Positions 8,544 to 64,000 of a stretch of 64,000 nt of DNA are shown piece after piece. Positions within the stretch are counted from its first letter, which is position 1. Each line of letters begins with the position of its first letter. The DNA is taken from positions 82,595 through 146,594 of the forward strand of contig CACLCM010000001.1 in NCBI GenBank assembly GCA_902605365.1, given 5' to 3'. Under the pieces are notes generated by a model, which saw only the letters and a program-made list of their open reading frames with translations, did no database searches and was not told where the DNA came from. The position numbers and the translations under genes were made by a program. The DNA comes from an uncultured Candidatus Poseidoniales archaeon (GTDB taxonomy: Archaea > Thermoplasmatota > Poseidoniia > Poseidoniales > Poseidoniaceae).

Positions 8544-8610
8544 GGAATTATTAGTAAGGCATCAGGCTCAATAAGTGCGGACAGTTGGAAGGGAAGAGGA
8601 GAGGGAATTC

Positions 8611-18282: not shown

Positions 18283-18359
18283 GCTTCGGCGAGTAACCAC
18301 TACACAAGAACACTTCCCTCAACGCACAGGTTGAAGAATCAAGCCCCATTGGGCCGTTC

Positions 18360-22151: not shown

Positions 22152-22766
22152 TCATTTCTTCGATAAATGTAATCTCACTACGTGCGCTTGGCCTCTGTGT
22201 AAGTCGGATTCTTCTAATTCTACAGTTTCGACTTTAGCATGAATTATTGTGAAACCTTCACCAATTACTTCCATCACTTCATCGAGGTCCCAGAGTAAAT
22301 CAAGGCTCTTGGGACCACCACTTGTCATTTCTATTTGGCTGGTGTGGTATCCTTCACAAATGAATTCTCCACCCGGTTTTAGCGAAGAAAGCATACGCGG
22401 ATAATGTTCACAAAACATTGACCAAGGGACGTGAAACCAAGAACATGCGATCAAATCATATTCCTGTTTTGAAAAATCACGGATTGCCAAATCATCCACT
22501 TCATAGTGAACTTCAACACCTCTTTCTTTAGCCAATAAAGCACACTTCTCCTTTCCAACATCAGATAGGTCGAATACGGTGGTGTCGTATCCTTGAGATG
22601 CAATCCAAACCGCGTTTCTTCCTTCTCCATCTGCAGGAACAAGCGCCTTTCCTGAACCGGGTTTAATCCTCATCTCAAGCCAAGCGTTGGGCTCTTTTCC
22701 ATACGCCCAACCACTTCCTGAAAATCTAGCATTCCATGCTTCTGCACCGAACCTTACATTACTCAT
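22152..22766 (-). CDS. Class I SAM-dependent methyltransferase
   Basis: ALVPADGEGRNAVWIASQGYDTTVFDLS fits the motif I / post-I pattern. ATG 22766 overlaps the upstream NFACT gene stop by 8 nt. The ORF is open from TTG 22775. Confidence 0.7.
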   Translation of the reverse strand: MSNVRFGAEAWNARFSGSGWAYGKEPNAWLEMRIKPGSGKALVPADGEGRNAVWIASQGYDTTVFDLSDVGKEKCALLAKERGVEVHYEVDDLAIRDFSKQEYDLIACSWFHVPWSMFCEHYPRMLSSLKPGGEFICEGYHTSQIEMTSGGPKSLDLLWDLDEVMEVIGEGFTIIHAKVETVELEESDLHRGQAHVVRLHLSKK

Positions 22767-32605: not shown

Positions 32606-32609
32606 GTTA

Positions 32610-33908
32610 TTACTCGTAAGTTAATATTGATTTAATTCTTTCACCAATCGATTTCGCCATAAATGGAGGGACAGCGTTTCCAATTTGAGTGTATTTTGGA
32701 CACTCTCTTTCAAAAATACCCTCACTTGGTTTTCCCGCACGACGATCTCCACCAGTAGTTCTTGGCCCTAAGAATACATGATGATCTGGTAATGTTTGAA
32801 GACGAGCCCATTCTCTAACAGAATATGTCCTAGGAACTGAATAATGAACGTAATCATCTGGTATTGATTGACAAGTCATTGTAGGATTATTTCCCTTCCA
32901 TCTTCTTGGAGTAAACGATTGATTGTTTTTCTTAGTGCGTAAATGTTCAGGACAGTCTTTCATATTGCACTGATTATCAATCATGAATTGAAATCTCTCT
33001 TCAGTTGATGGACGATGATTTGAAAACTCGTGATCTGTAAGGAGATGCTTTCTCCAATTATCGCCTAACATGGCACGCATTTGTTTTTGGTACTCTGTTT
33101 TTGGTTTCTTACGATGCCTAGGTTTTTCTTCTATCCAACCTTGGAAATTTAAATCATCAATTGCATCAATGATGTCAGGAGGAATTAGTCCATTTCCAAT
33201 AGGAAATAATCCGCCATTGTTCCTTAATTCACCACTATAATTTGACTTTCCTCCCTGAAAGAACTTTTTTTGACGGGGATTAAATTTAATCATGTCGAAT
33301 TCGCCTTTCGAATAAACGTCATGCCTAACCCCCATGATCATGACACGTGGACGGTTTTGAGGAACTCCGAAATTGTACGCATGAAGTAATGTTGGTTGGA
33401 TTTTGTATCCTTCGATGCTCTCAAATTCTTTCCATACCCTCCTAAATACCTCTCCTTTCCTTGCTTTCTTTTTTTTCCATTTAGCTGTAAGTAAGCCTTC
33501 CACATTCTCAAATAAGAAAACCTTAGGTTGAAGTATATTGATCACTCTAATCATTTCTTGGAAAAGGTAACTTGTTGGGATATCTTTAGTTTCCACTTTC
33601 TGACTTCTGCGAACTTGACTACGTGAATATTCTTGACAAGGAGGGCCTCCACAAAGCAAGTCAAGTTTACCTATGCCTCCTAATATTGGTAGCAGTTCCT
33701 TTTTGATAATGTCATTGGATAACACATCGACTATGTTTCCTACAAATGGTATCGCATCAGGGAAATTGGCTCGAAAGGATGCTGCTGCATTCACATTTAC
33801 CTCATTGAAAGCTACGCATCTAAACCCCGCCCCTTCCAAACCTCTAGTTAATCCGCCGCACCCTGCGAACAAATCAACACTTGTCAGATTCCTTCGCTCT
33901 CCCATCAT
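32610..33908 (-). CDS. dcm: DNA (cytosine-5)-methyltransferase
   Basis: Motif I DLFAGCGGLTRGLEGAGF, motif IV GGPPCQEYS, motif VI LFENVEGL, motif VIII QNRPRV, motif X GNAVPP. Confidence 0.9.
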   Translation of the reverse strand: MMGERRNLTSVDLFAGCGGLTRGLEGAGFRCVAFNEVNVNAAASFRANFPDAIPFVGNIVDVLSNDIIKKELLPILGGIGKLDLLCGGPPCQEYSRSQVRRSQKVETKDIPTSYLFQEMIRVINILQPKVFLFENVEGLLTAKWKKKKARKGEVFRRVWKEFESIEGYKIQPTLLHAYNFGVPQNRPRVMIMGVRHDVYSKGEFDMIKFNPRQKKFFQGGKSNYSGELRNNGGLFPIGNGLIPPDIIDAIDDLNFQGWIEEKPRHRKKPKTEYQKQMRAMLGDNWRKHLLTDHEFSNHRPSTEERFQFMIDNQCNMKDCPEHLRTKKNNQSFTPRRWKGNNPTMTCQSIPDDYVHYSVPRTYSVREWARLQTLPDHHVFLGPRTTGGDRRAGKPSEGIFERECPKYTQIGNAVPPFMAKSIGERIKSILTYE

Positions 33909-33929
33909 TTGTTGTGTGCCAACACCTGG

Positions 33930-33936
33930 ATATAAA
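33930..33936 (-). promoter_or_regulatory. TATA-box-like element upstream of methyltransferase (would give a leaderless or near-leaderless mRNA)
   Basis: The minus strand reads gggTTTATATcc. The element is centred about 26 nt upstream of the ATG at 33908, matching archaeal TATA-to-TSS spacing. Confidence 0.3.
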
Positions 33937-33977
33937 CCCTGGCTTTAAACAATCAATTCACACCAATTAAAGCAGTT

Positions 33978-34696
33978 TTAGTAATTAGTTCTAACCAAAA
34001 TTCGACTGACTTGTTTGTGAGACCATTTTCCTCCTCGCTTGGCAGGAACGCCACACTCATTCAATTCTCTTGCAATCTCTGAAACCTTAATGCCGTCTTC
34101 GTGATACCTTGCATGGATGTATTCAATCCACTTCTGTTCCTCTTCATTCTCGATGAAGTTGTTGTCCTCATCCACATCCCAACCGTATTTATCGTAGGTG
34201 AATCGCTTTCCTGTATCTTTGAGATGCTGTAAGGCCATACAGGTTCGCTCGCTGATGAGATTCCTCTCCATTTCACCAAAGGCAGCCAAGATGGTAATCA
34301 GCATCCTGCCAACTGCTGAAGACAAATCAAGAGGTTGCCCTCCTGATTCACAGAATTGAATTCCTACTCCAAATTCATCTAATTCTTCTACTGTAGCAAG
34401 GCAATCGATGGTGCTGCGAAATAATCTATCCATTCTGTAAGCAAAAATGTGCTTAATTTTCTGCTTAAGGATGAACGCTTCATCTGCTTAGCAGCAGGTC
34501 TTGACCACAATGGCACCTTGGCACTCACTCCGTCATCGATGAAAATATTCTCATCAGGAAGCAGTAAATTACGAAATTCTGCGTTAGCTTTTCCTTTGGC
34601 AATTTGAGCATCTATGCTCACTCCATCCTCCGCTTGACGAGTTGTTGATACTCGAACGTAGAGAACGCATTCTTCTGCTTGTTTCTGCTTAGCCAT
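33978..34696 (-). pseudogene. Serine recombinase (resolvase/invertase type with recombinase/HTH C-terminal part), interrupted by a frameshift near 34472-34490
   Basis: The upstream frame gives MAKQKQAEECVLYVRVSTTRQAEDGVSIDAQ...DDGVSA...RPAAK. The other frame continues ADEAFILKQKIKHIFAYRMDRLFRSTIDCL...AAFGEMERNLISERT...GGKWSHKQVSRIL. The two halves are ORFs 34388-34834 and 33978-34433. Confidence 0.75.
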
Positions 34697-34838
34697 CAAT
34701 CTAGATTTATCCGGCTTGGTATTTACACTCACGCGACGGCCAAAAGTTCGGACACTGGGTTGGTGTGTCCGTCTTTTTCTGCTTGTAGAAGCAGAAGTAA
34801 AAGTGGATTTTCGGGTTGCTATATGGTCGGCCATACCG

Positions 34839-36907: not shown

Positions 36908-38737
36908 CTACTCTTCACTGTCTTCTAATTGTGAATCGTAAATTTGTTCTAATTCAGCGGCTCTTTCTTCTGAAATACCAAATGTTTTAGCCTGGAATTT
37001 GAGCATTTTTCGCTCATCATCAGTAACAAACCGATCTTCCATTGCGATTCCATATGCCTCGGAATATGCATTTTCTTTATCCATGCGAAGAACTTCTGAT
37101 TCAGTCATCTGCGCTTGGATTTTAAATTCATCATATTGAATAAATCCATCTTGATTCAAATCAATTTCTTTGAAAAATTCAGACTGAGTTTCTGGAGGCA
37201 GTTTCGCAACTTCCGGAGATTGAGAAAATTCCTCTGGCGAAATTACTTCATCGTTATTTTTGTCCATTGATTCAAACGCCTCTTTGATTTCCCTCTCATC
37301 GATTGGTGCTAGACCAGTAGTTCCAAAGACACTCATCATATTTATCCCGCTTGAGCCATATTTCTCGGCTAGTCCTTCAGGAGTCTCGCGACCTTCTTCC
37401 AACTTGTCATACCATTCTTCAAGGTAAATTTTCTTCTCTTCATTAATCCCGTAAGCTTTCGCTTGGAGATCTAACATAGAACGTTCATTTACGGTAATCT
37501 TTCCATCCTTTTTTGCAAGAGAGTACATCTCAAGGTAACCTAATTCTTCCTTTGTGTGAGATTCAGGAAGAAGTTTTGACGAGATGATACCTATTGTCTT
37601 GATGATCGGTTTTCGCAGGATAATAAGTGGTAAACCAATTATTACGCCTCCAATCCAACCTTGGTCAAATATAGTTTCCATCACTTCAGTGCTTACTAAA
37701 AATAGAATTGCGCCCACTCCAGCGAAGATTGCAGTGCTGAATGTTTTCCGTAATTGTTCATCAATTCCAAACATGTCATTTTTGATAACTGCATATGTAA
37801 AAATGATACCTTCAAACAATGCAGCTAATACAACGGCGGTTGGCATCAGTGGAGCTAGTGCAATTAGGATTGCAGGGACATACTGGTCTGCATTGAAAGG
37901 ATTTGTACTCAGATTTGGCGATTCGCCGAGAATAGAAATAATCGTAAATAGAATCATAGTTGTCACAATTTGTAAAGTAGTCTTGCCAATGAATCCTAGT
38001 CGAACTGCACGCACTTCTCCAATGAGGTTTGCATTTCCTTCTGAATTTATTCTCTTCTGCGACTTTCCTACTGCGATTGTTGCAATTATTGCCCCAATAA
38101 GCGGGATGAAAAGTAGAACCTGTGTTAGTGGGCCAAGTGCGACATTAGAGTATGTCAAGGGATATACTGATGCATATTTTTCAGGACATGTAACTTCAAA
38201 GGGCAAGGGGTTGCCTGAAGCGGTAGTGCCTTGTCCAGCGCCTACTCCTTCACAGTAAATCCAGCCAATATCTCCAATCGCTACACTTGTTCCTCCCAAA
38301 AGGTGGCTTAAACCAATAATTAGTGTGAAACTGATTATCGGGAGAACGTATAATCCATGGAAACGGAAAAAGTCTTTAACTTTCTTAGCCCATTTCTTTT
38401 CACTGTAAAATGCGCCTGCCAAAATGTACAGAACAAATAATTGAAACGACATAGTGTAGTAAACTATTCTTGCAGGCTTTAGAACGCTCAGGAAACTTTC
38501 AGGCCAAGCATAGACCCAGAACAACATTGCTGTAGCGCATCTCAGTGCTTCAGTAAATAACATCAATGCCATAAATCGATTTTTAGCCTCTTTTGGACCT
38601 GCCTTCAATATAAGGTAAGAAAGGAAAATCAGGAAAACCGCTGCAAAAATACTGAAAATAGCAAGTAAGCCCCAGTATCCCAAGAATGAACCTGAAGCGC
38701 GCCAATAATATGAGAGTGGCGAGCCTACATCTGCCAT
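36908..38737 (-). CDS. Polytopic membrane protein with cytoplasmic C-terminal region carrying two EF-hand loops and two TerB-like/co-chaperone-like repeats
   Basis: About 10 predicted helices in the N-terminal 380 aa. EF loops are DKNNDEVISPEE and DLNQDGFIQYDE. Repeats are KDGKITVNERSMLDLQAKAYGINEE and EDRFVTDDERKMLKFQAKTFGISEE. Confidence 0.75.
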   Translation of the reverse strand: MADVGSPLSYYWRASGSFLGYWGLLAIFSIFAAVFLIFLSYLILKAGPKEAKNRFMALMLFTEALRCATAMLFWVYAWPESFLSVLKPARIVYYTMSFQLFVLYILAGAFYSEKKWAKKVKDFFRFHGLYVLPIISFTLIIGLSHLLGGTSVAIGDIGWIYCEGVGAGQGTTASGNPLPFEVTCPEKYASVYPLTYSNVALGPLTQVLLFIPLIGAIIATIAVGKSQKRINSEGNANLIGEVRAVRLGFIGKTTLQIVTTMILFTIISILGESPNLSTNPFNADQYVPAILIALAPLMPTAVVLAALFEGIIFTYAVIKNDMFGIDEQLRKTFSTAIFAGVGAILFLVSTEVMETIFDQGWIGGVIIGLPLIILRKPIIKTIGIISSKLLPESHTKEELGYLEMYSLAKKDGKITVNERSMLDLQAKAYGINEEKKIYLEEWYDKLEEGRETPEGLAEKYGSSGINMMSVFGTTGLAPIDEREIKEAFESMDKNNDEVISPEEFSQSPEVAKLPPETQSEFFKEIDLNQDGFIQYDEFKIQAQMTESEVLRMDKENAYSEAYGIAMEDRFVTDDERKMLKFQAKTFGISEERAAELEQIYDSQLEDSEE

Positions 38738-45325: not shown

Positions 45326-45403
45326 ATGGTACTGGTATATATTTAGGACTCCCTAAAATGAGTCATAAGATGATAGAGGATTTTCTTGATTAGAAGGTAG
45401 AAG

Positions 45404-45476
45404 TAGTCTCTCCCGGATTTGAACCGAGGTCTGCGGGACCAGAACCCACAATGATGGACCGCTACACTAAGAGACT
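45404..45476 (-). tRNA. tRNA-Gln (CTG), no encoded CCA
   Basis: The reverse complement is AGTCTCTTAGTGTAGCGGTCCATCATTGTGGGTTCTGGTCCCGCAGACCTCGGTTCAAATCCGGGAGAGACTA. Acceptor stem is AGTCTCT/AGAGACT with the A1:U72 pair typical of archaeal tRNA-Gln. Anticodon loop is TTCTGGT. Confidence 0.85.
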
Positions 45477-53082: not shown

Positions 53083-56000
53083 GTGATGATGATGTTTTTG
53101 AAGACTATGAATAACGACGGGCGTGCAAGAGCAATTTTGCTAGTCCTGATAATGTTACTTTCAACAACTGCCGCGAACCTAGTTTCTGCTTCGACTTCTC
53201 GTACCTATACGACTGATACAGACCCTGTTGATGTTGCATTGGGAGATTTCGATTGTGACGGAGACTTGGACATCGTAACAGCAAACGACAGAAGTACCAG
53301 AATTTCGGTTTTGTGGAATGAAAATGGACATTTCCAGAAGCGCACAGATATCTGGACTTCCGCTAACCCGAACCAAGATGCTGATTTCGAAGATCACTCA
53401 AACACTCAGCAGGTTGAAGTCGGTGAATTCACCGGTGACGACGCTATAGATATCGTAATCTATGCACGTAACAGGCCTCTACGCCAAGATGCAACAGGTG
53501 CGATTGTAGTCGATAAACCAGGTAACGTTACCATCGTTGAAAATGACGGCTGTAGCGTTGACACATTCACGATCAGACAACAATTCGATGTTGTTTGGAT
53601 GTGGGACCTTGCAGTAGCTGATTTGGACCAAGATGGCAACGACGATATCGTCACTCTAGAGTTGTTAGCTGACTTGAAGAATCAGCGTGTTGTCACATAC
53701 CGTGGACCAATCACTTCAAGCACTCAAGGACAAATCACAAGTCTAGGAGATTCTACTCAGAATGCATACAGGGAACTGGAATTAGGTGATTGGGGAGAAC
53801 CTAGTCAGACCAATCCGGTAAGCGGAAGTTGTGATGACAATGACCTTTGGTTAGTTCGCTCAGAAGGTGTAGATTACCTGACCGGCGCGGCAACTAATCC
53901 TGGTAAGTCTGACAACGTTACAGTAGTCGAATTTAATTGTCTTACCAACACTTTCCCTGCTACGATAACATGGAGTTCAACCGGAAGTGCAGGATTACAC
54001 GTTCATGCTTTAGGACCTGAATTTGGTGGTTTCGATATTGCAGACTTAGACAATGATGGAATCATCGACGTAGTTGCAATCAACGATGCAAATACTGAAA
54101 ACGTAACCTATGCAACAATTACGCAATCAACACACACCTACTCTCCTTCAAAGACAGTGTATTTCGGGCCATATATCGCTTGGGAAGTTACTGTTGGTGA
54201 ATTGAACGGTGACGGTGAACCGGATTTCGTTCATGCTGCTAAGTTCAAGCAATCCAACGCAACATCCTCTACAGGAGATACGACTACCAATTACTATCTG
54301 AACTTACCAACAAGCGTACAGGTTACTCTTTCAAACGGTAACGGTGGACATATGAATCCTCTAGAGTACTTTGGTGCAATGAGGCCAACCACTGTTGCAA
54401 TTGGGCAGGTTATTGGCGGGGCTAACAGTGCACCTGACTTGATTGTCGGTCACGGATCATACGACCAATTCACCTATGACGATAACTTTGGCTGGGATGG
54501 CTCATACGACCGAATCGTAGTTATCGAGATGGATAACAAAGACTTGGCGGTTTCAAATATCGATATTTCACCAACCGACGCATATGTTGGACTACTTGGA
54601 GAAGGTACTCGTGAAGTCGAAGTAACAGTAACCAATACTGGAATGGATATCCTAAACGGACAGGCTACTCTTGACGTTGAAATCAAGGAAGTAGACGAAG
54701 CAGCATCTAGCAATGTCACAGTTTATGCTATGGATTGGGATAACCCTGAGGACAAATCTGGGTGTGGCACAGGGTGTGGATGGACTACTGAAGCGTATTA
54801 TGGTGTAAGCCACTGGCACGAAGAAGTCGCTGCTAACAGTTCTGTTGGCCACACTTCTGGTAACAATGCCCCCGCACAGTCTGCTAACGCAAACAACCCA
54901 ACCGATTTCATGTGGTCTGGTGTCATGAAGACCAACTCAAGTGGAGACACTTGGTCCGGATATGAACCAAACTGGGATGAAGGACTAGTTCTGAATGACG
55001 TAGATTTGACAGGTGCAGACCGTGCTTGGATGAGTATTGAGATGTTCAGGCATCTCGGTCTAGCAGATCTTTACACTCAAGACACCAATGGATACGTTCT
55101 AGCTGAAGTTTGGGATGATGCAGCAATTATCGAAGTTTTCTCTGATGATGAAGGATGGGTAACCATCGCATGCCCAACAAGTGCTTACTTCGCAAACCAG
55201 TGTGCCTCGGGAGAGAGTTACTGGGGTGGCTATGACCAAGGAAGAGTTGAGAGTGAACAGAACACTGGCCTAGACGCTGCTATCTTCCGATATGGTGGAG
55301 CAATACCTGGTACACAATACGGCTGGGGTAACTTTACCGAAGATGACCTTGGTGCATTCGAACTATCTAGTTTCGCAGGAGACATAATCGATATTAGATT
55401 CCGCTTCAAGTCTGGATGGGAAGGTTCCTTAGGAACTAACGAATCTACTTGGTCTGGAAGAGATGGTTTCGCTATCGATAACGTAACAATCTGGAAACAG
55501 AATACAGCGTTCACATCAAATGTCCAAAATCAACAGTCAACTATCAATATGAACAACTTGGCTCCTAACGAGGACTACACTACTGCAATTACTGCTGATT
55601 TCATTAATGGAACAACATATCGCATATCTGCAGTCTTGAATTATGCACAAGATGAACAGCCAGCTAACGACGACATTGTTGGTTACATTACAGCATTCAA
55701 TATCTTTGACCCTGCTGTTATGAAGATAGATTCGTTTAATCCTGGTGGATTATATGCAGAAGGTAACTTCCCAATCGAAGTAATGGTTGAGCATCTTGGT
55801 AATACAAATGTCACATTCGACCTTGAAGCCAAGGTCTACAGTGCACTACCTACCGATGTATACTGCGGTTCCCCACTAGTCGTTTGTGAAGAAGGATTCG
55901 AAGGCGGCTCGTCTGGATTTAGATACACCGATGACAACAATGCAAACGGTGGAATTCTTGATGATTCAACTTGCGCTGAGAAGATTTTCGGTTCTCACGC

Positions 56001-59000
56001 ATACTGGTTCGGACACCCATGTAACACAGCAAACAGTTTCGGAGATGTGTGGGAGAATGAAACACTAACAATACCTGGTATCGATTTGACCAACATGTCT
56101 GGAGATTATGTTGCATTGAACTTCGAGTACTTTGCAGAGACATGGTTCGAAATCCAGCAATCTGGAGCAACTTCCTCTGTAAATGATTACGCAGCATTAA
56201 CCGCTGATTGGAACGTTGGAGGAACAGATTACGAAGGTGTAATCTACGGACAATGGATCGATTACAACGAAGATGGATTCTGTATCGTAGACGAAGATGG
56301 AAACGGTTTCATCGACCCTGTAAACGAGACAACGCTCGATAATACTGAGATTGATTACATCGGTGACCCATCTAACGTCAATGGTGGAGCAGGTTCTTAC
56401 AACGTGTTCTTCAACAGTGACGGATTGGTACAAAGCAGAAGTATTGACCTTACTCACTTGTATGTAGTCAATACAACCTCTCCAGATTCGAACTTGTGGA
56501 CCGATGAATGTATCAGTCTTGCAGGATCAGTCGTCGATTTGAATTTCGAATTCCAATCCAACGACGATGGACACAATGGTCAAAATGACGGTGTTCGTGG
56601 AGTTGCTTTCGATAACATCTCTCTTGAGGAGTTCACATTCAGCCAGGATGCATCTTACTCTACAACTGTAATTGACCTAGATGCTGAAGAGAACAGAACC
56701 ATTGCAATCTCAAACCATGACTTCGTATCTGGAGTTTACAAGATTGAGGTTGAATCAATATTCGACAACACAACCCAAGGAACAGCTTGGTACGGATTCG
56801 AAGAGATTTCCCTTGCTAACAACTTAGGCAGAGTGATCTTCTCAGTTGAGAGTGTAGATATCACCTTAGGAAAGCCAGATCAGATATCCTGTCTGTCAGA
56901 TGTTATCCTAGATTGTCACTTGCCAATTGATAGCGCCAAGATGCATGACTGGTCTCTATCTGCAACAAATGGTGTACTTCAAGGAGATTATACATTCCAT
57001 ATGACAGTAGTCGATGAAGCGGATGGCAGTACAGTTCACTCTACTACTGCAGGACCAAGTCAGACTCTATCTGCTCACGAGAGAACTTCGGTTTCCTTCA
57101 CTCCATGGAACGGTTGGATGGATGGTCATTCCTACAACATTAGTTACCATGCAACTTTACCTGACGGTAGTACTTCTGGAAATGTACGCTACTTCCATGC
57201 ATCATTCGCAGACCAAATCGATGTAGCAATTCTTTCGGGAGATTCTACTAGAGTCTCTGCAATTAAGGAAGACTTAGTTCTGCTTGGAATGTCATACACA
57301 CAGTATGATATCCTCGACTGGGATGATTATCTAGACCTTGGATGGATGACTCACTATGACAAGATAATCATGCCATGGCAAGATGTGAATATCGCTAAGC
57401 CTAGTGAAGAAGGCGGTAAAGGATACTTCGAGATAATTGGAAGCTCCTCAAACCAAAATGTGTTGAAGAATTTCATGTCGTCTGGTGGTACAGTACAAGT
57501 TCACTTGTCTGGTGCTACAGATTACTATGATTACTCATCGTCTACAGGAGAGAGCCTACTACCATTCGATATGGATATTCAGCCTCGTAACACTCCTGAA
57601 ACTCGAGTTACTTACAACAACATGGAAGTTGCTGACCCTTACCACCCAATTCTCGATGGTGTAGACTTAGCAGCCTTCCAAGGATTCGACCAATTCGGAA
57701 CAGTTACTGAAGCGATAATCAATACCAAGAGCGCTTCTGCAACTTCGATTCCACGTGCTTGTGGAGACTACTCTGAGGAAGGAGGTTCTTTCCAGCGACT
57801 ATTACAATCAGAAGCAGATTCTCAGGACACTGTTCTGGGAGTATGTAGCTATGTTGACGGTGGATTAATCGTTACTACAATCGATGTATCTAGCGTTTCC
57901 GATAGAGCAGATAGTACTACATTCCCACTATTGGGTAACATGCTATCCTACCACGTATCACCTTATCCAAATGGATTTGGAACACTTGGTAATGGTCTTG
58001 ATTTGACTATAAATGGCGAAGTACCATCTTTCGATCCATCTACAGGAGGATATGCTTACCATTACATGAAGAGTGACTCAGAAATCACATTTGGTCACAC
58101 TACCAGTACTTCTGAAGTGCTATCGACAGATTGGGTAATGAGCGGTCCTACCGATTGGGAAGGATCCTCAATGGCTAGTGGAAGCGACCACACAGATGTT
58201 GCAAACCCAACAGTCAATTTCTGTAAGGTAGACTTGTCATCCGCAACCGGATGTCTTCAAGGAGCAACATGGGAAGTCACTCTTTACCTGCATGACGATG
58301 CTGGACACTCACGTTCCATCAGTGTCACAGTAATGACCGATGATACTCGAGCAGACGAATTCCGTCCTGATGCTGATGCAATAATCGATATGCGGGAAGA
58401 ATACGCTGACCAAATAGAGGACCGTGGAGTCAAATCTGTATCCGGAATAGACTGGCCTCTAAAGAGAATCAACCTGGATGAATCAGGCTCTCTAACAGTA
58501 CATTTCGATGCAGGAAACTCTTCAGATGCTGATGCATTAACCGGTAACGGAATTGAAACCTATGAGTGGACTGTACTGTTCGACAAGCCTTACGATGAAG
58601 ATAATTACAAGTTGGAAGGGCACAATTTCATCACACCATCATCTAGTGATGGAGCTTGGGCTTACACATTCAGTAACGTTACTGTTGACCCAAGTGGACA
58701 AACAGAGTCTCTGATTCGTATCGAACTTGTAGTCTATGATCAGGCTGGAAAGAGTTCTGACAAGTACAAGATGTACTTCTCAGTAGTTCCTGAAGGATTC
58801 GGAGATGCAGAACCTACTGTACAAATCGACTTATCGATGAATGGCACAAAGGTTGTTGGTGATACAATCACTCTAACCGGAAACGTTGTTGATGGTGCAG
58901 AACAAGGCGATGTCTATGTTGAAGCAGCACTATTGGACACTACGTTCGATGAAACTGCAGTCGCAAAGTACACCCTACAACTAGAGGGCAAGTGGGCTAA

Positions 59001-59598
59001 ATCCCCTGCTCTTGGTGATGGAGATGGATTCGAATTAACTTTGAACATCGAAGAATTATTCGATAACATAACCAAGCAAGAGCGTGTATACCTGAAGGTG
59101 TATGAAGGAGATGACAAGCGTTGGCCTATCATCTACTACATTGAAATCACTCTACCTGAATGTCAGGGTCTAACAGTTCCTGTTGAAGTTCTTGACGCAG
59201 AGCCAGATGCATACTGGATTTGGGAGAATGAAGAGTGTGTATGGTCTGGAGATTACACTGACTCCGATGGAGATGGTGCACCTGACAAAGCCCCTGTTAC
59301 CGAAGGAGCAGAATCAGAAGATGACAATCTGATGCTGTATCTAGGAGGAGGAATCGGTCTTCTCATGATTGTTATACTGTCCTTATTCTTTGTACTTCGT
59401 GGAAACGACGAAGAAGATGTAATGGGCGATTCCCAGATGAGTGGAGACTTCTCTGCAACAGCTGCAGGATATGGCGGAGTTGCACAAATGGATCCAATGG
59501 AGCAATATGTTCAACAATTGATTGCTCAAGGATATCCAGAGGAAACAGCCAGGACATATGCTCAGCAATACGCTGGTCACTTCCAACAACAGCAATAG
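53083..59598 (+). CDS. Giant single-pass surface protein (2171 aa): signal, FG-GAP/VCBS-like repeats, long beta-rich region, TM, short Gln-rich cytoplasmic tail
   Basis: Uninterrupted 6.5-kb ORF. Signal ARAILLVLIMLLSTTAANLVSA. Motifs GDFDCDGDLDIVTAN, ADLDQDGNDDIVTLE, ADLDNDGIIDVVAIN and GELNGDGEPDFVHAA. TM helix LYLGGGIGLLMIVILSLFFVL. ATG at 53086. Confidence 0.9.
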   Translation: MMMMFLKTMNNDGRARAILLVLIMLLSTTAANLVSASTSRTYTTDTDPVDVALGDFDCDGDLDIVTANDRSTRISVLWNENGHFQKRTDIWTSANPNQDADFEDHSNTQQVEVGEFTGDDAIDIVIYARNRPLRQDATGAIVVDKPGNVTIVENDGCSVDTFTIRQQFDVVWMWDLAVADLDQDGNDDIVTLELLADLKNQRVVTYRGPITSSTQGQITSLGDSTQNAYRELELGDWGEPSQTNPVSGSCDDNDLWLVRSEGVDYLTGAATNPGKSDNVTVVEFNCLTNTFPATITWSSTGSAGLHVHALGPEFGGFDIADLDNDGIIDVVAINDANTENVTYATITQSTHTYSPSKTVYFGPYIAWEVTVGELNGDGEPDFVHAAKFKQSNATSSTGDTTTNYYLNLPTSVQVTLSNGNGGHMNPLEYFGAMRPTTVAIGQVIGGANSAPDLIVGHGSYDQFTYDDNFGWDGSYDRIVVIEMDNKDLAVSNIDISPTDAYVGLLGEGTREVEVTVTNTGMDILNGQATLDVEIKEVDEAASSNVTVYAMDWDNPEDKSGCGTGCGWTTEAYYGVSHWHEEVAANSSVGHTSGNNAPAQSANANNPTDFMWSGVMKTNSSGDTWSGYEPNWDEGLVLNDVDLTGADRAWMSIEMFRHLGLADLYTQDTNGYVLAEVWDDAAIIEVFSDDEGWVTIACPTSAYFANQCASGESYWGGYDQGRVESEQNTGLDAAIFRYGGAIPGTQYGWGNFTEDDLGAFELSSFAGDIIDIRFRFKSGWEGSLGTNESTWSGRDGFAIDNVTIWKQNTAFTSNVQNQQSTINMNNLAPNEDYTTAITADFINGTTYRISAVLNYAQDEQPANDDIVGYITAFNIFDPAVMKIDSFNPGGLYAEGNFPIEVMVEHLGNTNVTFDLEAKVYSALPTDVYCGSPLVVCEEGFEGGSSGFRYTDDNNANGGILDDSTCAEKIFGSHAYWFGHPCNTANSFGDVWENETLTIPGIDLTNMSGDYVALNFEYFAETWFEIQQSGATSSVNDYAALTADWNVGGTDYEGVIYGQWIDYNEDGFCIVDEDGNGFIDPVNETTLDNTEIDYIGDPSNVNGGAGSYNVFFNSDGLVQSRSIDLTHLYVVNTTSPDSNLWTDECISLAGSVVDLNFEFQSNDDGHNGQNDGVRGVAFDNISLEEFTFSQDASYSTTVIDLDAEENRTIAISNHDFVSGVYKIEVESIFDNTTQGTAWYGFEEISLANNLGRVIFSVESVDITLGKPDQISCLSDVILDCHLPIDSAKMHDWSLSATNGVLQGDYTFHMTVVDEADGSTVHSTTAGPSQTLSAHERTSVSFTPWNGWMDGHSYNISYHATLPDGSTSGNVRYFHASFADQIDVAILSGDSTRVSAIKEDLVLLGMSYTQYDILDWDDYLDLGWMTHYDKIIMPWQDVNIAKPSEEGGKGYFEIIGSSSNQNVLKNFMSSGGTVQVHLSGATDYYDYSSSTGESLLPFDMDIQPRNTPETRVTYNNMEVADPYHPILDGVDLAAFQGFDQFGTVTEAIINTKSASATSIPRACGDYSEEGGSFQRLLQSEADSQDTVLGVCSYVDGGLIVTTIDVSSVSDRADSTTFPLLGNMLSYHVSPYPNGFGTLGNGLDLTINGEVPSFDPSTGGYAYHYMKSDSEITFGHTTSTSEVLSTDWVMSGPTDWEGSSMASGSDHTDVANPTVNFCKVDLSSATGCLQGATWEVTLYLHDDAGHSRSISVTVMTDDTRADEFRPDADAIIDMREEYADQIEDRGVKSVSGIDWPLKRINLDESGSLTVHFDAGNSSDADALTGNGIETYEWTVLFDKPYDEDNYKLEGHNFITPSSSDGAWAYTFSNVTVDPSGQTESLIRIELVVYDQAGKSSDKYKMYFSVVPEGFGDAEPTVQIDLSMNGTKVVGDTITLTGNVVDGAEQGDVYVEAALLDTTFDETAVAKYTLQLEGKWAKSPALGDGDGFELTLNIEELFDNITKQERVYLKVYEGDDKRWPIIYYIEITLPECQGLTVPVEVLDAEPDAYWIWENEECVWSGDYTDSDGDGAPDKAPVTEGAESEDDNLMLYLGGGIGLLMIVILSLFFVLRGNDEEDVMGDSQMSGDFSATAAGYGGVAQMDPMEQYVQQLIAQGYPEETARTYAQQYAGHFQQQQ

Positions 59599-60950: not shown

Positions 60951-61982
60951 TTACTCTTCTTCATAAGAAGATAATTCTGAATCTTCTTCTTCTTCGATGA
61001 ATCCAATTTCATCATAGTGACTTTCGAAGTCAGGCATGTTTATCTTCCAATTCCTTGGAAGTTTCCTGTTTGCAGATATTATCTTCTCAAGGCGCTGTTG
61101 GAATGCAGGTGGGTGCCTTGAAAACAAGAACATATACAGTTTTGTTCCACGAATATCCTCTGGAATCACAACCTTTCCACTACTTGCTTCAAATTGAATC
61201 GCTCTCAACAAGTTGAATCCAGGTTTGTTCACTCTGTGGTATAGTTTACGAGTAAATGACATTCCAATAATTACTGTAACTAGAATTAGTAGACTTGTTA
61301 GACAGAATGCACCCCATCCTTCTCCAAATAACCATCTAGATGCAAATACTTCCATCATAAGAAATGGGATAGTAGTGAGCATGAAAAGCATATTCTCGGA
61401 AACAGGAGCCTTATTGGCTCTCATCTTAATTGCAGTCCAACCTCCATGGTTTTTTTGCCATGGTTTGAAATGGATTTTAGGGTCTTGTTCAGCAGACCTC
61501 TCCAGTGTGCGATGTAGTTGAGTAATTCTAGCGAGTTGAGAATTTGCAATGTCTAAATTATCTTCAAACAGAGAACTTAGACGGTCTCTTGCTTCTGCAT
61601 ACATTCCTAAATCAGACAGTATTGTTGCTTGTTCAACAATAGGTACTGATTCGAGAGGAGCGGCATCTCTACATCGTTGCCACCAATGAAGAGCATCTTC
61701 GTGCAACCCTAACTGGTCGACCATGATTCGACCACCTTTAATCCAAGCATCGACCCTTGATGGGTCAAGTTCAATCACTTTATTGCAAGCAACTAATGCT
61801 TTAGAAGCCTGGTCAATATCTGGGTATTTACCATCAGGAGACAATAGTTCGACGATCATCCACCAAGCATTCGAATGTTCGGGGTCGGCTTTTACTGCTA
61901 ATCTAGCATGCTCTAAAGCATCATCAAATTCGCCATTCTCTTCCGCTTCAATAGCATCAAGATAATGACTTTCACCGCTCAT
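60951..61982 (-). CDS. TPR-repeat protein with two C-terminal-half TM helices
   Basis: The N-terminal half has TPR-like helices (AWWMIVELL..., AWIKGGRIM...). Helices MLFMLTTIPFLMMEVF and AFCLTSLLILVTVIIGMSF follow. The start forms an ATGA overlap with the upstream stop. Confidence 0.65.
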   Translation of the reverse strand: MSGESHYLDAIEAEENGEFDDALEHARLAVKADPEHSNAWWMIVELLSPDGKYPDIDQASKALVACNKVIELDPSRVDAWIKGGRIMVDQLGLHEDALHWWQRCRDAAPLESVPIVEQATILSDLGMYAEARDRLSSLFEDNLDIANSQLARITQLHRTLERSAEQDPKIHFKPWQKNHGGWTAIKMRANKAPVSENMLFMLTTIPFLMMEVFASRWLFGEGWGAFCLTSLLILVTVIIGMSFTRKLYHRVNKPGFNLLRAIQFEASSGKVVIPEDIRGTKLYMFLFSRHPPAFQQRLEKIISANRKLPRNWKINMPDFESHYDEIGFIEEEEDSELSSYEEE

Positions 61983-63052
61983 TCACGATTCCTCCGCTCA
62001 CTACGACCATACTTTGCAGATTGTAGGGGAGGGGGGTCCTTCAGTTTCCTGTGGTGCCCTTTGTTTCTTGGTCCACCTACTCTTTTCGAGCGTCCACAAC
62101 TGAAACACTCGTTTCTCTTAGCGAAATTTGATTTTCCACATTGAGGACATTCCCAATCGCCAGCTCTTGGCTCAGGTGCTTCTCTCCTATCGCCAGGTCT
62201 GCGGTCATTACCTTCCCACTTTCTTGAATCTGGATTTCTTCTTCTGTCATCACGACCACTCCTGTCGTCACGACCTCTGCGGTCGTCACGTCCACGCCTG
62301 TCATCACGACCTCTGCGGTCATTTCCGCCTCTGCGATCATTACGCTGATTTGAGCCTCCTCCTCTTTTTGGCTCACCACAGCGGTTACATTCAGTTCTGA
62401 ATGCGAAGTTGGAATTATTACACTTTGGACATTCCCAATCGTTGTCCGAAAAATTACCGCGACCGTCTCTTCTGTCGTCACGACCTCTGCGGTCATCACG
62501 TCCACGCCTGTCATCACGTCCACGCCTGTCATCACGACCTCTGCGGTCATTACCGCCTCTGCGGTCATTACGCTGACTTGAGCCTCCTCTTTTTGGCTCA
62601 CCACAGCGTTTACATTCAGTTCTGAATGCGAAGTTGGAATTATTGCACTTTGGACATTCCCAATCGTTGTCTGAAAAATTACCGCGACGGTCTCTTCTGT
62701 CATCACGACCTCTGCGGTCTTCACGTCCACGCCTGTCATCACGACCTCTACGGTCGTCTCGGCCACGACTATCATCGCGTCCTCTTCGATTGTCATTTGA
62801 TTGCCGATTATCTCTTGGCCTTTTGGTACGAATAGTAATTTCTAGACCTACCATTTGACTGGCATTTGATTTTCTGTCAAGATGGGCGACATGAACTAGT
62901 GACTCGTTTAGATTACCAATTACTCCATCGACCTTGCCGATGTATGTTTCACCAGAATCGATCATTACTGAACCAAGGGCAGGGCACGCTCCCGAGTAAC
63001 TAACGAGCAATCCACCTTCGTGGCTGACTCTCTCTACCCTACCTTTGAACAT
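61979..63052 (-). CDS. Gar1-like beta-barrel fused to Arg/Asp-rich (RRGRDD)n arrays and three RanBP2-type zinc fingers
   Basis: The N-terminus KGRVERVSHEGGLLVSYSGACPALGSVMIDSGETYIGKVDGVIGNLNESLVHV aligns by eye to archaeal Gar1 (G.V......G.L.V.....P.L...V.......G.V..V.G). The three fingers are WECPKCNNSNFAFRTECKRCG, WECPKCNNSNFAFRTECNRCG and WECPQCGKSNFAKRNECFSCG. Confidence 0.8.
   Translation of the reverse strand: MFKGRVERVSHEGGLLVSYSGACPALGSVMIDSGETYIGKVDGVIGNLNESLVHVAHLDRKSNASQMVGLEITIRTKRPRDNRQSNDNRRGRDDSRGRDDRRGRDDRRGREDRRGRDDRRDRRGNFSDNDWECPKCNNSNFAFRTECKRCGEPKRGGSSQRNDRRGGNDRRGRDDRRGRDDRRGRDDRRGRDDRRDGRGNFSDNDWECPKCNNSNFAFRTECNRCGEPKRGGGSNQRNDRRGGNDRRGRDDRRGRDDRRGRDDRSGRDDRRRNPDSRKWEGNDRRPGDRREAPEPRAGDWECPQCGKSNFAKRNECFSCGRSKRVGGPRNKGHHRKLKDPPPLQSAKYGRSERRNRE
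62176..62850 (-). repeat. Coding tandem repeat with about 225-bp period (two near-identical zinc-finger segments plus a diverged third) and nested 15-bp RRGRD sub-repeats
   Basis: The segments around 62366-62470 and 62591-62695 are almost identical (ggctcaccacagcgKttacattcagttctgaatgcgaagttggaattatt...). Plus-strand shadow ORFs at 62401 and 62626 begin with the same peptide. Confidence 0.85.
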
Positions 63053-63088: not shown

Positions 63089-64000
63089 TCAATCTCTACG
63101 GAGTAGAATTGCCGCTCCTAGCATGGAAAACATAGTAGCAAACATTCCAATTGAGGGTAGTCCGCTTTCTTCAGCCGAGCTATCAGTGTCTCCTGGTTCA
63201 ACAACATTTCCGGCATAAGGATCTGATACACTAACTTCGATAATTGAGATTTCACCAACAGAATCAGTCGCACTGAGAGTTACATCATATTGAGTCAATC
63301 CATCAGCAACACATTTTGCGATTGAAAGGCTAACATCCCAATTTGGTCTTTCTCCAGTGAAACTTGTAGTGGTTTCTCCACACATTGTAGCAGAGAGTTG
63401 TACATCACCGCCATCTGGGTCATACACTTCACCAGATAGTGTGAATGAGAACTGGTCTGAAGCCCAGGTTGCTTGTGAACCATCAATCTGGTCAGTTTCG
63501 ACTGTGATTACAGGTGGAGTATTGGTCTTTTCAAGAGACAGGTCAATCATTACATCCCAATCTAACATTCCAGTAGATGTTGCAGTAACATGAATCATGA
63601 ACGCACCGGGGGATATTCCTGAAAGTTGTACAGCATCAGTGGATGATGTAGAACCTAGATTGGTTTGTGTCACAGGGCCATCTCCTCCATCTTGAGATGC
63701 AGCAAGGCTAACTGCAAGGTTTTGAACCAATAATGATGGAGTAGATTCGATGTTTACCGAGTCACTGTAACTTGCAAGTTGGTCAGGTGCAGAGAAACTT
63801 GCCGGCTGTCCAAATCTCCAGGACTTTGTAGCATTATTTCTCTCGCCATACGGGTCTACAATTGCGCAATCCGCGGTTCCCGAATCTGAAACACCAGAAG
63901 TTACCAGAAGTTCTCCTGCTGAATTCATTCTACTCGACCAACCGTCCTCAGCGAAAGTACAATCCAATCCCCATGCATGGTTGTCACTAGCCCAATCAGC
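63089..64000 (-). CDS. Secreted surface protein with PKD/Ig-like domain, 5' end beyond window; ends in TM-RRD sorting-signal-like terminus
   Basis: The minus-strand frame stays open to nt 64000 (ADWASDNHAWG precedes the TTG at 63967). The protein ends GLPSIGMFATMFSMLGAAILLRRD*. A PKD-like stretch is SGEVYDPDGGDVQLSA...YDVTLSATDSVGE. Confidence 0.7.
   Translation of the reverse strand, partial: ADWASDNHAWGLDCTFAEDGWSSRMNSAGELLVTSGVSDSGTADCAIVDPYGERNNATKSWRFGQPASFSAPDQLASYSDSVNIESTPSLLVQNLAVSLAASQDGGDGPVTQTNLGSTSSTDAVQLSGISPGAFMIHVTATSTGMLDWDVMIDLSLEKTNTPPVITVETDQIDGSQATWASDQFSFTLSGEVYDPDGGDVQLSATMCGETTTSFTGERPNWDVSLSIAKCVADGLTQYDVTLSATDSVGEISIIEVSVSDPYAGNVVEPGDTDSSAEESGLPSIGMFATMFSMLGAAILLRRD

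What the first reader, a model, noticed from the sequence alone, without database searches (positions are those of the whole stretch)
61979..63052. Gar1-like domain fused to RRGRDD arrays and three canonical RanBP2-type zinc fingers (eukaryote-like RNA-binding architecture)
The first 60 aa or so align by eye to the archaeal H/ACA RNP protein Gar1 barrel. The rest consists of (R)RGRDD pentapeptide arrays interrupted by three fingers. Each finger fits the RanBP2 consensus W-x-C-x2-C-x3-N-x6-C-x2-C exactly. The NFAFRTEC / NFAKRNEC core resembles the ssRNA-binding subclass (ZRANB2 and FUS/EWS/TAF15-type NFxxRxxC) rather than the ubiquitin-binding NZF subclass (T-F motif). Eukaryotic Gar1 is flanked by Gly/Arg-rich domains. 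FET proteins place a RanBP2 finger between RGG boxes. Archaeal Gar1 is normally a bare barrel of about 80-100 aa. This would be an unusual archaeal protein combining features regarded as eukaryotic elaborations.
Basis: partly seen in the sequence, partly recalled or inferred. Interest (0 to 1): 0.75.

Follow-up and report, generated by a model that had tools for sequence, protein, structure and literature searches.

The report
Archaeal Gar1 with RNA-binding zinc fingers
This gene encodes the Poseidoniales (Marine Group II archaea) version of Gar1, a subunit of the RNA-guided pseudouridine-forming complex, extended by a long flexible arginine-rich tail carrying three small zinc fingers of the type eukaryotic ZRANB2 and FUS use to bind single-stranded RNA; this combination has not been described for archaea.

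Summary
ORF 61979-63052 (-) encodes 357 aa: an N-terminal beta-barrel of about 79 aa, three RanBP2-type zinc fingers that fit the consensus exactly (Pfam PF00641, 78.6 bits against a cut-off of 27), and RRGRDD arrays predicted to be disordered.

The barrel is a diverged Gar1:
- Single-sequence Pfam and NCBIfam scores fall below the curated cut-offs.
- Gar1 is nevertheless the top Pfam family for 20 of 20 relatives.
- A family profile hits P. furiosus Gar1 first in the PDB.
- hhalign against canonical Gar1 gives 98% probability.
- The AlphaFold model (pLDDT 89) matches archaeal, yeast and human Gar1 (TM 0.74-0.82).

The fingers best match ZRANB2, FUS and RBM10. They keep the RNA-contact residues across 193 distinct family fingers, and none has the ubiquitin-binding TF motif.

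The architecture is not a one-off. It is found in 281 loci in Poseidoniales species genomes, with 0-5 fingers. Finger-less and one-finger forms occupy the same syntenic slot, so this is one orthologous gene with an elaborated tail. Close strains differ by clean in-frame gain or loss of modules.

The most likely function is an H/ACA RNP Gar1 subunit with a multivalent ssRNA-binding tail. I could not test Cbf5 binding, RNA binding, or whether the genome lacks a second gar1. No prior description was found. I rate it a new variant of a known kind.

The parts
61979..63052 (-). Complete gene, 357 aa: Gar1 barrel plus three RanBP2-type zinc fingers separated by RRGRDD arrays
   Evidence: ORF listing; Pfam; 258 homologues; 281 genomic loci
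62816..63052 (-). aa 1-79: Gar1-type six-stranded beta-barrel with an invariant SHEGG loop and the P-x-L and G-K-V-D-x-V-x-G motifs
   Evidence: AF2 pLDDT 89.2; Foldseek top hits 2ey4, 2hvy, 3u28 and human Gar1, TM 0.74-0.82, rmsd about 2 A; profile against PDB; Pfam Gar1 top hit in 20 of 20 members; hhalign 98%
62675..62815 (-). aa 80-126: linker 1, an RRGRDD array predicted to be disordered
   Evidence: pLDDT below 50 for residues 80-126; 18-bp and 36-bp tandem repeats
62588..62674 (-). aa 127-155: zinc finger 1 (DWECPKCNNSNFAFRTECKRC)
   Evidence: Regex; Pfam PF00641; best PDB matches ZNF265/ZRANB2 at E 9e-8, FUS, RBM10; contact-residue map D,N,S,F,F,R,K
62450..62587 (-). aa 156-201: linker 2, an RRGRDD array predicted to be disordered
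   Evidence: pLDDT below 50 for residues 156-201; TRF
62360..62449 (-). aa 202-231: zinc finger 2 (DWECPKCNNSNFAFRTECNRC), the finger closest to the ZRANB2/FUS RNA-binding pattern
   Evidence: Regex; contact-residue map D,N,S,F,F,R,N
62177..62359 (-). aa 232-292: linker 3 (RRGRDD array followed by the conserved W-x-G-N-D-R-R-x-G-D-R motif)
   Evidence: pLDDT below 50 for residues 232-292; W279, G281, R284, R285, G287 and R289 invariant in the clade
62084..62176 (-). aa 293-323: zinc finger 3 (DWECPQCGKSNFAKRNECFSC), a distinct terminal finger type that is nearly invariant in the clade
   Evidence: Regex; invariant columns; contact-residue map D,K,S,F,K,R,F
61979..62083 (-). aa 324-357 plus stop: conserved basic C-terminal peptide (KRVGGPRNKGHHRKLKDPPPLQSAKYGR...), predicted to be disordered, of unknown role
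   Evidence: Invariant columns; a G-H-[AH]-H tail recurs across the family; pLDDT below 50
62240..62743 (.). 225-bp tandem duplication (2.2 copies, 91% match) that generated the finger 1 and finger 2 modules
   Evidence: TRF; strain variants differ by clean in-frame module indels
60951..61982 (-). Downstream gene whose start overlaps the gar1 stop by 4 bp: a 343-aa protein with TPR repeats, a transmembrane segment and an acidic C-terminus. The pair is conserved across the order. Whether it belongs functionally is unknown
   Evidence: Pfam TPR; hydrophobic segment around aa 220-245; synteny in L001-L004, L085-L089

Best explanation
This is the Gar1 orthologue of a Poseidoniales (Marine Group II) archaeon.

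The N-terminal barrel most likely docks on the catalytic domain of Cbf5 in the box H/ACA pseudouridylation RNP. In characterised archaeal complexes Gar1 controls the Cbf5 thumb loop and substrate and product turnover. This docking is inferred, not shown.

A lineage-specific tail is fused to the barrel. It consists of three FUS/ZRANB2-type RanBP2 zinc fingers, each probably gripping a short G-rich single-stranded RNA triplet. The fingers are strung on flexible, net-positive RRGRDD linkers. The tail therefore gives the RNP a multivalent, low-specificity single-stranded-RNA tether. It would capture or hold substrate RNA (pre-rRNA or tRNA), or the guide RNA, near the active site. This is the role proposed for the RGG domains of eukaryotic Gar1, here reached with a different module.

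The tail evolves by unequal recombination of its 18-bp and 225-bp repeats, so finger number varies from 0 to 5 among relatives and between close strains.

What is shown: the architecture, the Gar1 fold and homology, the finger class, conservation of the RNA-contact residues, positional orthology with simpler forms, and modular indels. What is inferred: Cbf5 binding, zinc and RNA binding, and the functional consequence.
For: - Gar1 identity: Gar1 is the top Pfam family for 20 of 20 N-terminal domains (best E 2.6e-5). The family profile hits P. furiosus Gar1 chains first in the PDB (E 0.003). hhalign against a canonical set that includes a Pfam-annotated Gar1 gives 98% probability, E 1.8e-13, over 74 columns. 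The AF2 model (pLDDT 89) matches Gar1 of archaeal, yeast, insect and human RNPs with TM 0.74-0.82. JGI independently names family members 'rRNA processing protein Gar1'.
- Orthology: finger-less (154 aa) and one-finger (204 aa) forms sit in the same syntenic slot. The exhaustive search shows a continuum down to canonical 89-90-aa Gar1. The apparent second copies in MAGs are strain-variant contigs.
- Finger class: PF00641 scores 78.6 bits. The best PDB matches are ZRANB2 F1 and F2, FUS and RBM10. At the ZRANB2 RNA-contact positions (PMC11789483), 193 distinct family fingers have D 99%, N 83%, aromatic 100%, R 99% and N 83%, and none has a TF motif.
- Tail: linkers have pLDDT below 50 while the barrel and fingers fold. 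All 120 top hits keep the barrel.
- Precedent: the RGG domains of eukaryotic Gar1 modulate catalysis and substrate exchange (PMC8096250).
Against: - The barrel scores below the curated Pfam and NCBIfam cut-offs and carries a lineage-specific SHEGG motif, so it is diverged.
- No cbf5, nop10, L7Ae or H/ACA RNA lies in the 64-kb window or next to the gene in relatives.
- Absence of a second, canonical gar1 elsewhere in the genome was not tested.
- Finger 1 has K and finger 3 has K and F at specificity positions, so GGU recognition cannot be assumed.
- Some positional orthologues lack fingers, so the tail is not essential for the core function.
- Nothing here tests binding directly.
Confidence: 0.65

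Rival explanations
1. The barrel has been co-opted. The protein is a stand-alone multivalent RNA-binding protein or chaperone that no longer works in the H/ACA RNP, and a separate canonical gar1 serves Cbf5.
For: The scores against Pfam and NCBIfam Gar1 are below threshold. The family-specific SHEGG motif is invariant. No H/ACA partner genes lie nearby, and the conserved linkage is instead to a TPR/membrane protein.
Against: Positional orthologues with a plain barrel plus basic tail look like ordinary archaeal Gar1. The exhaustive profile search found no second short family attributable to Poseidoniales. The duplicates seen in MAGs are strain variants. The fold match covers the whole Gar1 core. 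gar1 is not usually clustered with cbf5 in archaea (general knowledge, not tested here).
Confidence: 0.15
2. The tail is largely neutral repeat expansion. The finger and RRGRDD modules are tolerated low-complexity DNA amplified by slippage or unequal recombination and contribute nothing specific.
For: There are 18-bp and 225-bp tandem repeats. Close strains differ by whole modules. Finger number ranges from 0 to 5, and finger-less orthologues exist.
Against: RNA-contact and zinc-ligand positions are conserved across 193 distinct fingers. The terminal finger and tail are nearly invariant within the clade. The reading frame is maintained in essentially all complete ORFs. The architecture persists across 281 species-level genomes.
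Confidence: 0.1
3. The fingers mediate protein-protein contacts (as Nup153/RanBP2 fingers do with Ran, or NZF fingers with ubiquitin-like proteins such as archaeal SAMPs), or they bind ssDNA rather than RNA.
For: The RanBP2 fold is used for protein binding in several eukaryotic proteins, and Nup153 and RanBP2 fingers appear further down the hit list. FUS-type fingers can also bind DNA (general knowledge).
Against: None of the 193 fingers has the NZF TF motif. The top matches are all RNA-binding members. The D, N, aromatic, R and N contact set is conserved. The fusion partner is a subunit of an RNA-modifying RNP.
Confidence: 0.07

Closest known systems
Archaeal Gar1 (e.g. Pyrococcus furiosus Gar1 in PDB 2EY4, 2HVY, 3HAY)
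   Same: It has the same six-stranded barrel (TM about 0.8, rmsd about 2 A). It keeps the same core motifs (P-x-L and G-x-V-x-x-V-x-G) in the profile alignment. A basic C-terminal end is also present.
   Different: The canonical protein is about 75-105 aa, a barrel plus a short basic tail. Here about 280 aa with three zinc fingers and RRGRDD arrays follow the barrel. The barrel is diverged (about 23% identity, below the Pfam cut-off) and has an invariant SHEGG loop.
Eukaryotic Gar1 (yeast Gar1p, human GAR1)
   Same: A Gar1 core is flanked by arginine-rich, disordered, presumably RNA-contacting extensions. Some relatives of the window protein carry true RGG/GGYRGGG tails (P0194, P0070, and L047 with 18 RGG).
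   Different: The eukaryotic extensions lie on both sides of the core, are pure RGG, and contain no zinc fingers. The window protein's linkers are RRGRDD (only 4 RGG) and lie at the C-terminus only. Nothing indicates common descent of the extensions.
ZRANB2 (ZNF265)
   Same: This is the best sequence match for the fingers (E 9e-8 and 2e-6). The D68, N76, aromatic-79, R82 and N86 contact pattern is retained, and there are multiple fingers per protein.
   Different: ZRANB2 pairs two fingers with an RS domain and acts in splicing. The R81 equivalent is usually F here (as W in FUS). It has no Gar1 domain.
FET proteins (FUS, EWS, TAF15)
   Same: A single RanBP2 finger with an N-F-x-aromatic-R-x-E-C-N core is embedded between arginine-rich disordered regions, so structured and disordered parts cooperate in RNA binding (PMC12344763 listed).
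   Different: FET proteins also have an RRM and a prion-like domain, and their linkers are RGG boxes. They are not part of an RNA-modification enzyme.

Membership tests
Gar1 (PF04410; H/ACA RNP subunit) | Gar1-type six-stranded beta-barrel fold | tested here: met
   AF2 pLDDT 89.2. The top Foldseek hits are 2ey4_D/C, 2hvy_B, 3u28_C and human and insect Gar1, followed by Naf1; TM 0.74-0.82, rmsd 1.7-2.2 A.
Gar1 (PF04410; H/ACA RNP subunit) | Sequence homology to the Gar1 core detectable by profile methods | tested here: met
   Gar1 is the top Pfam family for 20 of 20 members. The profile against the PDB returns P. furiosus Gar1 first, at E 0.003. hhalign gives 98% probability, E 1.8e-13. Caveat: the curated single-sequence cut-offs are NOT reached (PF04410 16.9-21 bits against 29.3; NF009629 18.5 against 132).
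Gar1 (PF04410; H/ACA RNP subunit) | Binds the catalytic domain and thumb loop of Cbf5 | not testable with these tools
   No complex prediction or experiment was available.
Gar1 (PF04410; H/ACA RNP subunit) | It is the genome's Gar1 orthologue (no separate canonical gar1), alongside cbf5, nop10 and L7Ae | tested here: inconclusive
   Finger-less and one-finger positional orthologues exist. The second loci in MAGs are strain variants. No second Poseidoniales Gar1 family appeared in the exhaustive search. However, no whole genome could be scanned, and no partner genes lie in the window.
RanBP2-type zinc finger (PF00641) | W-x-C-x2-C-x3-N-x6-C-x2-C signature, and a score above the Pfam gathering threshold | tested here: met
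   Three exact matches. 78.6 bits against a cut-off of 27, with 3 stretches. The fingers fold as small beta-hairpin units with pLDDT 60-79.
RanBP2-type zinc finger (PF00641) | Coordinates one zinc ion through the four cysteines | not testable with these tools
   All four Cys are 100% conserved in 193 distinct fingers, but metal binding was not measured.
ssRNA-binding RanBP2 subclass (ZRANB2, FET, RBM5/10) | Conserved RNA-contact set: D before W, N76, an aromatic at the stacking position, R82 and N86 (ZRANB2 F2 numbering) | tested here: met
   Finger 2 matches fully (D,N,F,R,N). Finger 1 has K at the N86 position. Finger 3 has K at N76 and F at N86. Family-wide: D 99%, N 83%, F/Y 100%, R 99%, N 83%. 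Contacts are taken from PMC11789483. The best PDB matches are RNA-binding members.
ssRNA-binding RanBP2 subclass (ZRANB2, FET, RBM5/10) | Binds GGU/GGN single-stranded RNA | not testable with these tools
   This needs EMSA, RBNS or SELEX.
NZF (ubiquitin-binding RanBP2 subclass) | T-F/Y dipeptide after the second cysteine | tested here: not met
   0 of 193 distinct fingers carry it. The window fingers have NNSN or GKSN at this position.
GAR/RGG domain (as in eukaryotic Gar1 and fibrillarin) | Clustered RGG/RG repeats in a glycine-rich disordered segment | tested here: not met
   The window tail has only 4 RGG and is 35% R, 19% D and 16% G, i.e. RRGRDD arrays. Relatives do meet the criterion (P0194 is 41% G; 71 of 232 members have at least 5 RGG). 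The window protein resembles a GAR domain in charge and disorder but is not one.

The most novel reading that the evidence does not exclude
Poseidoniales independently built a Gar1 carrying a FUS-like module (RNA-binding RanBP2 fingers embedded in R/G/D-rich disordered repeats). The module makes the H/ACA RNP multivalent for G-rich single-stranded RNA, enough to concentrate it on nascent rRNA or even drive condensate-like assemblies. That would be a prokaryotic counterpart of GAR-domain-dependent nucleolar organisation. It would also mean that the ssRNA-binding RanBP2 finger subclass, so far characterised only in eukaryotes, is established and under selection in an abundant archaeal order, which raises the question of the direction of transfer.
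Probability: 0.2. Interest if true: 0.8.

Novelty: new variant of a known kind. Interest (0 to 1): 0.6.

Why it matters
Textbook and recent primary literature treat arginine-rich RNA-contacting extensions on Gar1 as a eukaryote-specific feature (PMC8096250). RNA-binding RanBP2 fingers have been characterised only in eukaryotic splicing, FET and organellar editing proteins.

Here an entire, globally abundant order of marine archaea carries such an elaboration on its Gar1 orthologue. Natural variants with 0 to 5 fingers, and with either RRGRDD or true RGG tails, sit in one syntenic gene.

This provides a natural allelic series for testing what accessory RNA-binding tails do for an RNA-guided modification enzyme. 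It is also a simple prokaryotic system for studying finger/IDR cooperation, and a data point on whether such modules arose convergently or were exchanged between archaea and eukaryotes. It corrects database annotation as well, since most members are labelled 'hypothetical' or 'zinc finger protein'.

Tried and rejected
- Single-sequence phmmer of the N-terminal 88 aa against the PDB found nothing. The family profile was needed.
- An exact look-up of the window protein in the assembly index returned 'not on record'. The nearest genome locus is L006 in MAG MED870, about 97% identical.
- The idea that some genomes hold two paralogous copies was rejected. L005/L006, L010/L015 and L029/L030 are syntenic strain-variant contigs in the same bins.
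- The ubiquitin-binding NZF reading was rejected: 0 of 193 fingers have the TF motif.
- A homology search seeded with the canonical-type Gar1 P0237 returned only itself. It was useful only for its precomputed PF04410 label.
- P0201 and P0238 (long proteins with repeated hits to the barrel profile) turned out to be additive false positives on WD40-type repeats (for P0201; P0238 was not inspected).
- Rfam at gathering thresholds found only two tRNAs in the window and no H/ACA RNA.
- A Pfam survey of about 40 window genes found no cbf5, nop10 or L7Ae.
- Literature searches for Gar1 with RanBP2 and archaea, with Poseidoniales, with Marine Group II, and for zf-RanBP with archaea found no prior description.
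- One search used a wrong regex spacing and returned nothing; it was corrected.
Full report
**1. The observation**

The minus-strand ORF at 61979-63052 starts with ATG and encodes 357 aa. A regular expression for W-x-C-x2-C-x3-N-x6-C-x2-C finds three fingers at aa 131-150, 206-225 and 300-319, which are nt 62603-62662, 62378-62437 and 62096-62155.

Pfam Zn_ribbon_RanBP (PF00641) scores 78.6 bits (E 1.9e-22, gathering cut-off 27) with three stretches.

RGRDD occurs 11 times and RRGRDD 10 times. Outside the fingers the tail is 35% R, 19% D and 16% G, and the region after aa 79 has a net charge of +33.

At the DNA level the arrays have an 18-bp or 36-bp period. A 225-bp unit (one finger plus its array) is repeated 2.2 times at 91% identity over 62240-62743. 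The alternative-frame ORFs inside this region (for example 62077-62796) are by-products of the repeats.

**2. Is the N-terminus Gar1?**

For the single sequence the signal is weak. PF04410 gives 16.9 bits (E 0.0054) against a cut-off of 29.3. The NCBIfam Gar1 equivalog NF009629 gives only 18.5 bits, but it aligns residues 6-96 to model positions 4-94 of 97. phmmer of the N-terminal 88 aa against PDB sequences finds nothing.

I therefore built a 20-sequence alignment of the N-terminal domain from homologues (A1). The results were:
- Scanned individually, all 20 members have Gar1 as their best Pfam family (best E 2.6e-5), all below the curated cut-off.
- The A1 profile searched against PDB sequences returns four P. 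furiosus Gar1 chains as its top four hits (E 0.003-0.01). The alignment runs through the P-x-L and G-x-V-x-x-V-x-G motifs.
- An AlphaFold2 model of the domain is confident (pLDDT 89.2, pTM 0.78).
- Foldseek against the PDB places Gar1 from the P. furiosus, yeast, insect and human H/ACA (telomerase) RNPs at the top (TMq 0.74-0.77, TMt up to 0.82, rmsd 1.7-2.2 A). The Gar1 domain of Naf1 comes next, and unrelated barrels follow only after that.
- An exhaustive hmmsearch of A1 against 1.84 billion cluster representatives finds only 127 significant proteins. The weakest include canonical 89-90-aa proteins, one of which (P0237) carries a precomputed PF04410 annotation.
- hhalign of A1 against these two plus the P. 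furiosus fragment gives 98% probability, E 1.8e-13, over 74 columns. This test is partly circular, because two of the three template sequences were found with A1.

JGI's pipeline independently names several members 'rRNA processing protein Gar1'.

Conclusion: the domain is a diverged but genuine Gar1 barrel.

**3. What kind of fingers?**

phmmer of one finger against PDB sequences ranks the hits in this order:
- ZNF265/ZRANB2 finger 1: E 9.3e-8
- ZRANB2 finger 2 (the chain crystallised with RNA, 3G9Y): E 2.1e-6
- FUS ZnF (6G99): E 3.3e-5
- RBM10: E 7.2e-5
- Nup153, TAF15, RBM5 and RanBP2 below these

Published contacts of ZRANB2 finger 2 with GGU are D68, N76, V77 (backbone), W79 (stacking), R81, R82 and N86 (PMC11789483, citing Loughlin et al. 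2009). The window fingers map onto these positions as follows:

| Finger | D68 | N76 | V77 | W79 | R81 | R82 | N86 |
|---|---|---|---|---|---|---|---|
| 1 | D | N | S | F | F | R | K |
| 2 | D | N | S | F | F | R | N |
| 3 | D | K | S | F | K | R | F |

The N-F-x-aromatic-R-x-E-C-N core is the FUS pattern (NFSWRNECN). Across 193 distinct fingers of the family these positions are D 99%, N 83%, F/Y 100%, (F 73%, K 10%, R 9%, W 4%), R 99% and N 83%, and the four Cys are 100% conserved. None has the NZF T-F/Y motif.

The fingers therefore fall in the ssRNA-binding subclass by sequence, and the contact residues are conserved across the family. Zinc and RNA binding themselves are inferred.

**4. Whole-protein anatomy**

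A full-length AlphaFold2 run shows the barrel (1-79) and the three fingers as folded units (block pLDDT 60-79). Residues 80-126, 156-201, 232-292 and 324-357 are below 50. The picture is beads on a string.

Within the window's clade the internal fingers and arrays vary. The C-terminal module is nearly invariant. It consists of W-x-G-N-D-R-R-x-G-D-R, finger 3, and the peptide KRVGGP..KGHHRKL.DPPPL.SAKYGR. A related terminal peptide (R-G-K-x-x-G-H-A-H-N-R-x-P) ends the more distant members. Its role is unexplained.

**5. Distribution and orthology**

The full-length search finds 258 homologues. All 120 listed carry PF00641 and the barrel, and they come almost entirely from Poseidoniales/MGII MAGs and SAGs.

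A scan of one genome per GTDB species finds 281 confirmed loci. The 80 retrieved are Poseidoniales, apart from one evidently contaminated bin.

Finger number ranges from 1 to 5 among the database hits and from 0 to 4 among the genomic ORFs.

More distant members show every intermediate:
- canonical short Gar1;
- barrel plus basic tail (P0202, P0205, P0218);
- barrel plus a pure RGG/GGYRGGG tail with no finger (P0194);
- forms with degenerate fingers.

Synteny is decisive for orthology. The window gene, its 45-60%-identical relatives, a 4-finger form (P0169), a one-finger form (P0213, Thalassarchaeaceae) and a finger-less form (P0205) all lie in the same slot. That slot is between a ~640-680-aa protein with no Pfam match and a ~330-370-aa TPR/membrane protein, next to S-adenosylhomocysteine hydrolase, a ~2200-aa FG-GAP protein and aconitase.

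MAGs that appeared to have two copies contain syntenic strain-variant contigs, not paralogues.

Strain variants 94-97% identical in the flanks differ by clean in-frame loss or gain of a 75-aa finger module or a 40-aa array. This fits unequal recombination within the repeats.

So one orthologous gene, the order's Gar1, has a rapidly evolving, modular tail.

**6. Surroundings**

The gar1 stop overlaps the start of the TPR/membrane gene by 4 bp (61979-61982), and the pair is conserved across the order. The upstream ORF (63089 to beyond 64000) ends 36 bp before gar1.

No cbf5, nop10, L7Ae or Rfam H/ACA RNA is present in the window. The finger motif occurs nowhere else in the window.

**7. Mechanism**

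In characterised archaeal RNPs, Gar1 binds only Cbf5 and regulates the thumb loop and product release. The RGG domains of eukaryotic Gar1 modulate catalysis and substrate exchange and are described as absent from the archaeal counterpart (PMC8096250).

The best-supported reading is that the barrel plays the canonical Gar1 role. The tail supplies several weak, G-triplet-type ssRNA contacts plus electrostatic attraction. Together these tether substrate or guide RNA to the RNP, with avidity set by the number of modules.

Three rivals remain:
- a co-opted stand-alone RNA-binding protein with a separate gar1 elsewhere (0.15);
- largely neutral repeat expansion (0.10);
- protein- or DNA-binding fingers (0.07).

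**8. Comparison and novelty**

The protein is a member of the Gar1 fold and homology family and of PF00641. By sequence it behaves like the ZRANB2/FET ssRNA-binding fingers.

The window tail is not a true GAR/RGG domain (4 RGG; RRGRDD arrays instead), although relatives have real RGG tails.

Literature searches for Gar1 with RanBP2 and archaea, with Poseidoniales or with Marine Group II, and for zf-RanBP in archaea, found no description of this architecture. Public annotations are mostly 'hypothetical protein' or 'zinc finger protein'.

I rate it a new variant of a known kind, with interest 0.6. It is surprising to specialists because it contradicts the view that such Gar1 extensions are confined to eukaryotes, and it offers a natural series of variants. 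The function is still inferred, and the whole-genome test for a second gar1 remains to be done.

Noticed in passing
window 30287-34834 (-): A small defence or mobile island. It holds a GmrSD-type restriction endonuclease (PF03235+PF07510), a C5 cytosine DNA methylase (PF00145), and a serine recombinase split into two overlapping ORFs (33978-34433 and 34388-34834), probably by a frameshift.
   Followed up: no
window 60951-61982 (-): A 343-aa protein with N-terminal TPR repeats, a hydrophobic segment around aa 220-245 and an acidic C-terminus (EEEEDSELSSYEEE). Its start overlaps the gar1 stop by 4 bp, and the pair is conserved across Poseidoniales. The function and any link to Gar1 are unknown.
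   Followed up: partly
window 61979-62083 (-); also the C-termini of P0046, P0059, P0085, L046-L082: A conserved C-terminal peptide follows the disordered tail: KGHHRKL.DPPPL.SAKYGR in the window clade and R-G-K-x-x-G-H-A-H-N-R-x-P in the others. It looks like a short docking motif with an unknown partner.
   Followed up: partly
window 63089-64000 (-), runs off the window end: This is the C-terminal part of a ~640-680-aa protein with no Pfam match. It ends in a hydrophobic anchor plus RRD (a possible archaeal C-terminal sorting signal) and always lies immediately upstream of gar1 in relatives.
   Followed up: no
window 2346-8543 (+) and 53083-59598 (+): Two giant ORFs of 2065 and 2171 aa. Orthologues of the second carry weak FG-GAP_3 hits and stay syntenic with gar1 and aconitase across the order. 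They are probably large surface proteins.
   Followed up: no
L057 (CAXRAI010000013.1): A contig with the Poseidoniales gar1-finger gene sits in a MAG labelled Salinimicrobium sp. (Bacteroidota). This is most likely bin contamination.
   Followed up: no
L005 / L006 (MAG MED870), L010 / L015 (SP143), L029 / L030 (SP3054): Single MAGs contain two syntenic versions of the same locus at 86-99% identity, which indicates strain mixtures in the bins. In MED870 the two versions differ in finger number, 2 against 3.
   Followed up: yes
window 8575-10071 (+) and 36908-38737 (-): Two proteins with EF-hand calcium-binding motifs, which are uncommon in archaeal annotation.
   Followed up: no
window 17458-18300 (-), 22759-24843 (-): Ordinary RNA and ribosome-related genes: an RNase PH-type exosome subunit, and an NFACT (ribosome quality control) protein. 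tRNA-Phe is at 17335-17410 and tRNA-Gln at 45403-45476.
   Followed up: no
P0201 (1361 aa), P0238 (1284 aa): Long proteins hit the barrel profile through many repeated short stretches. P0201 is an NTPase plus WD40-repeat protein, so this is an additive false positive. P0238 was not inspected.
   Followed up: partly
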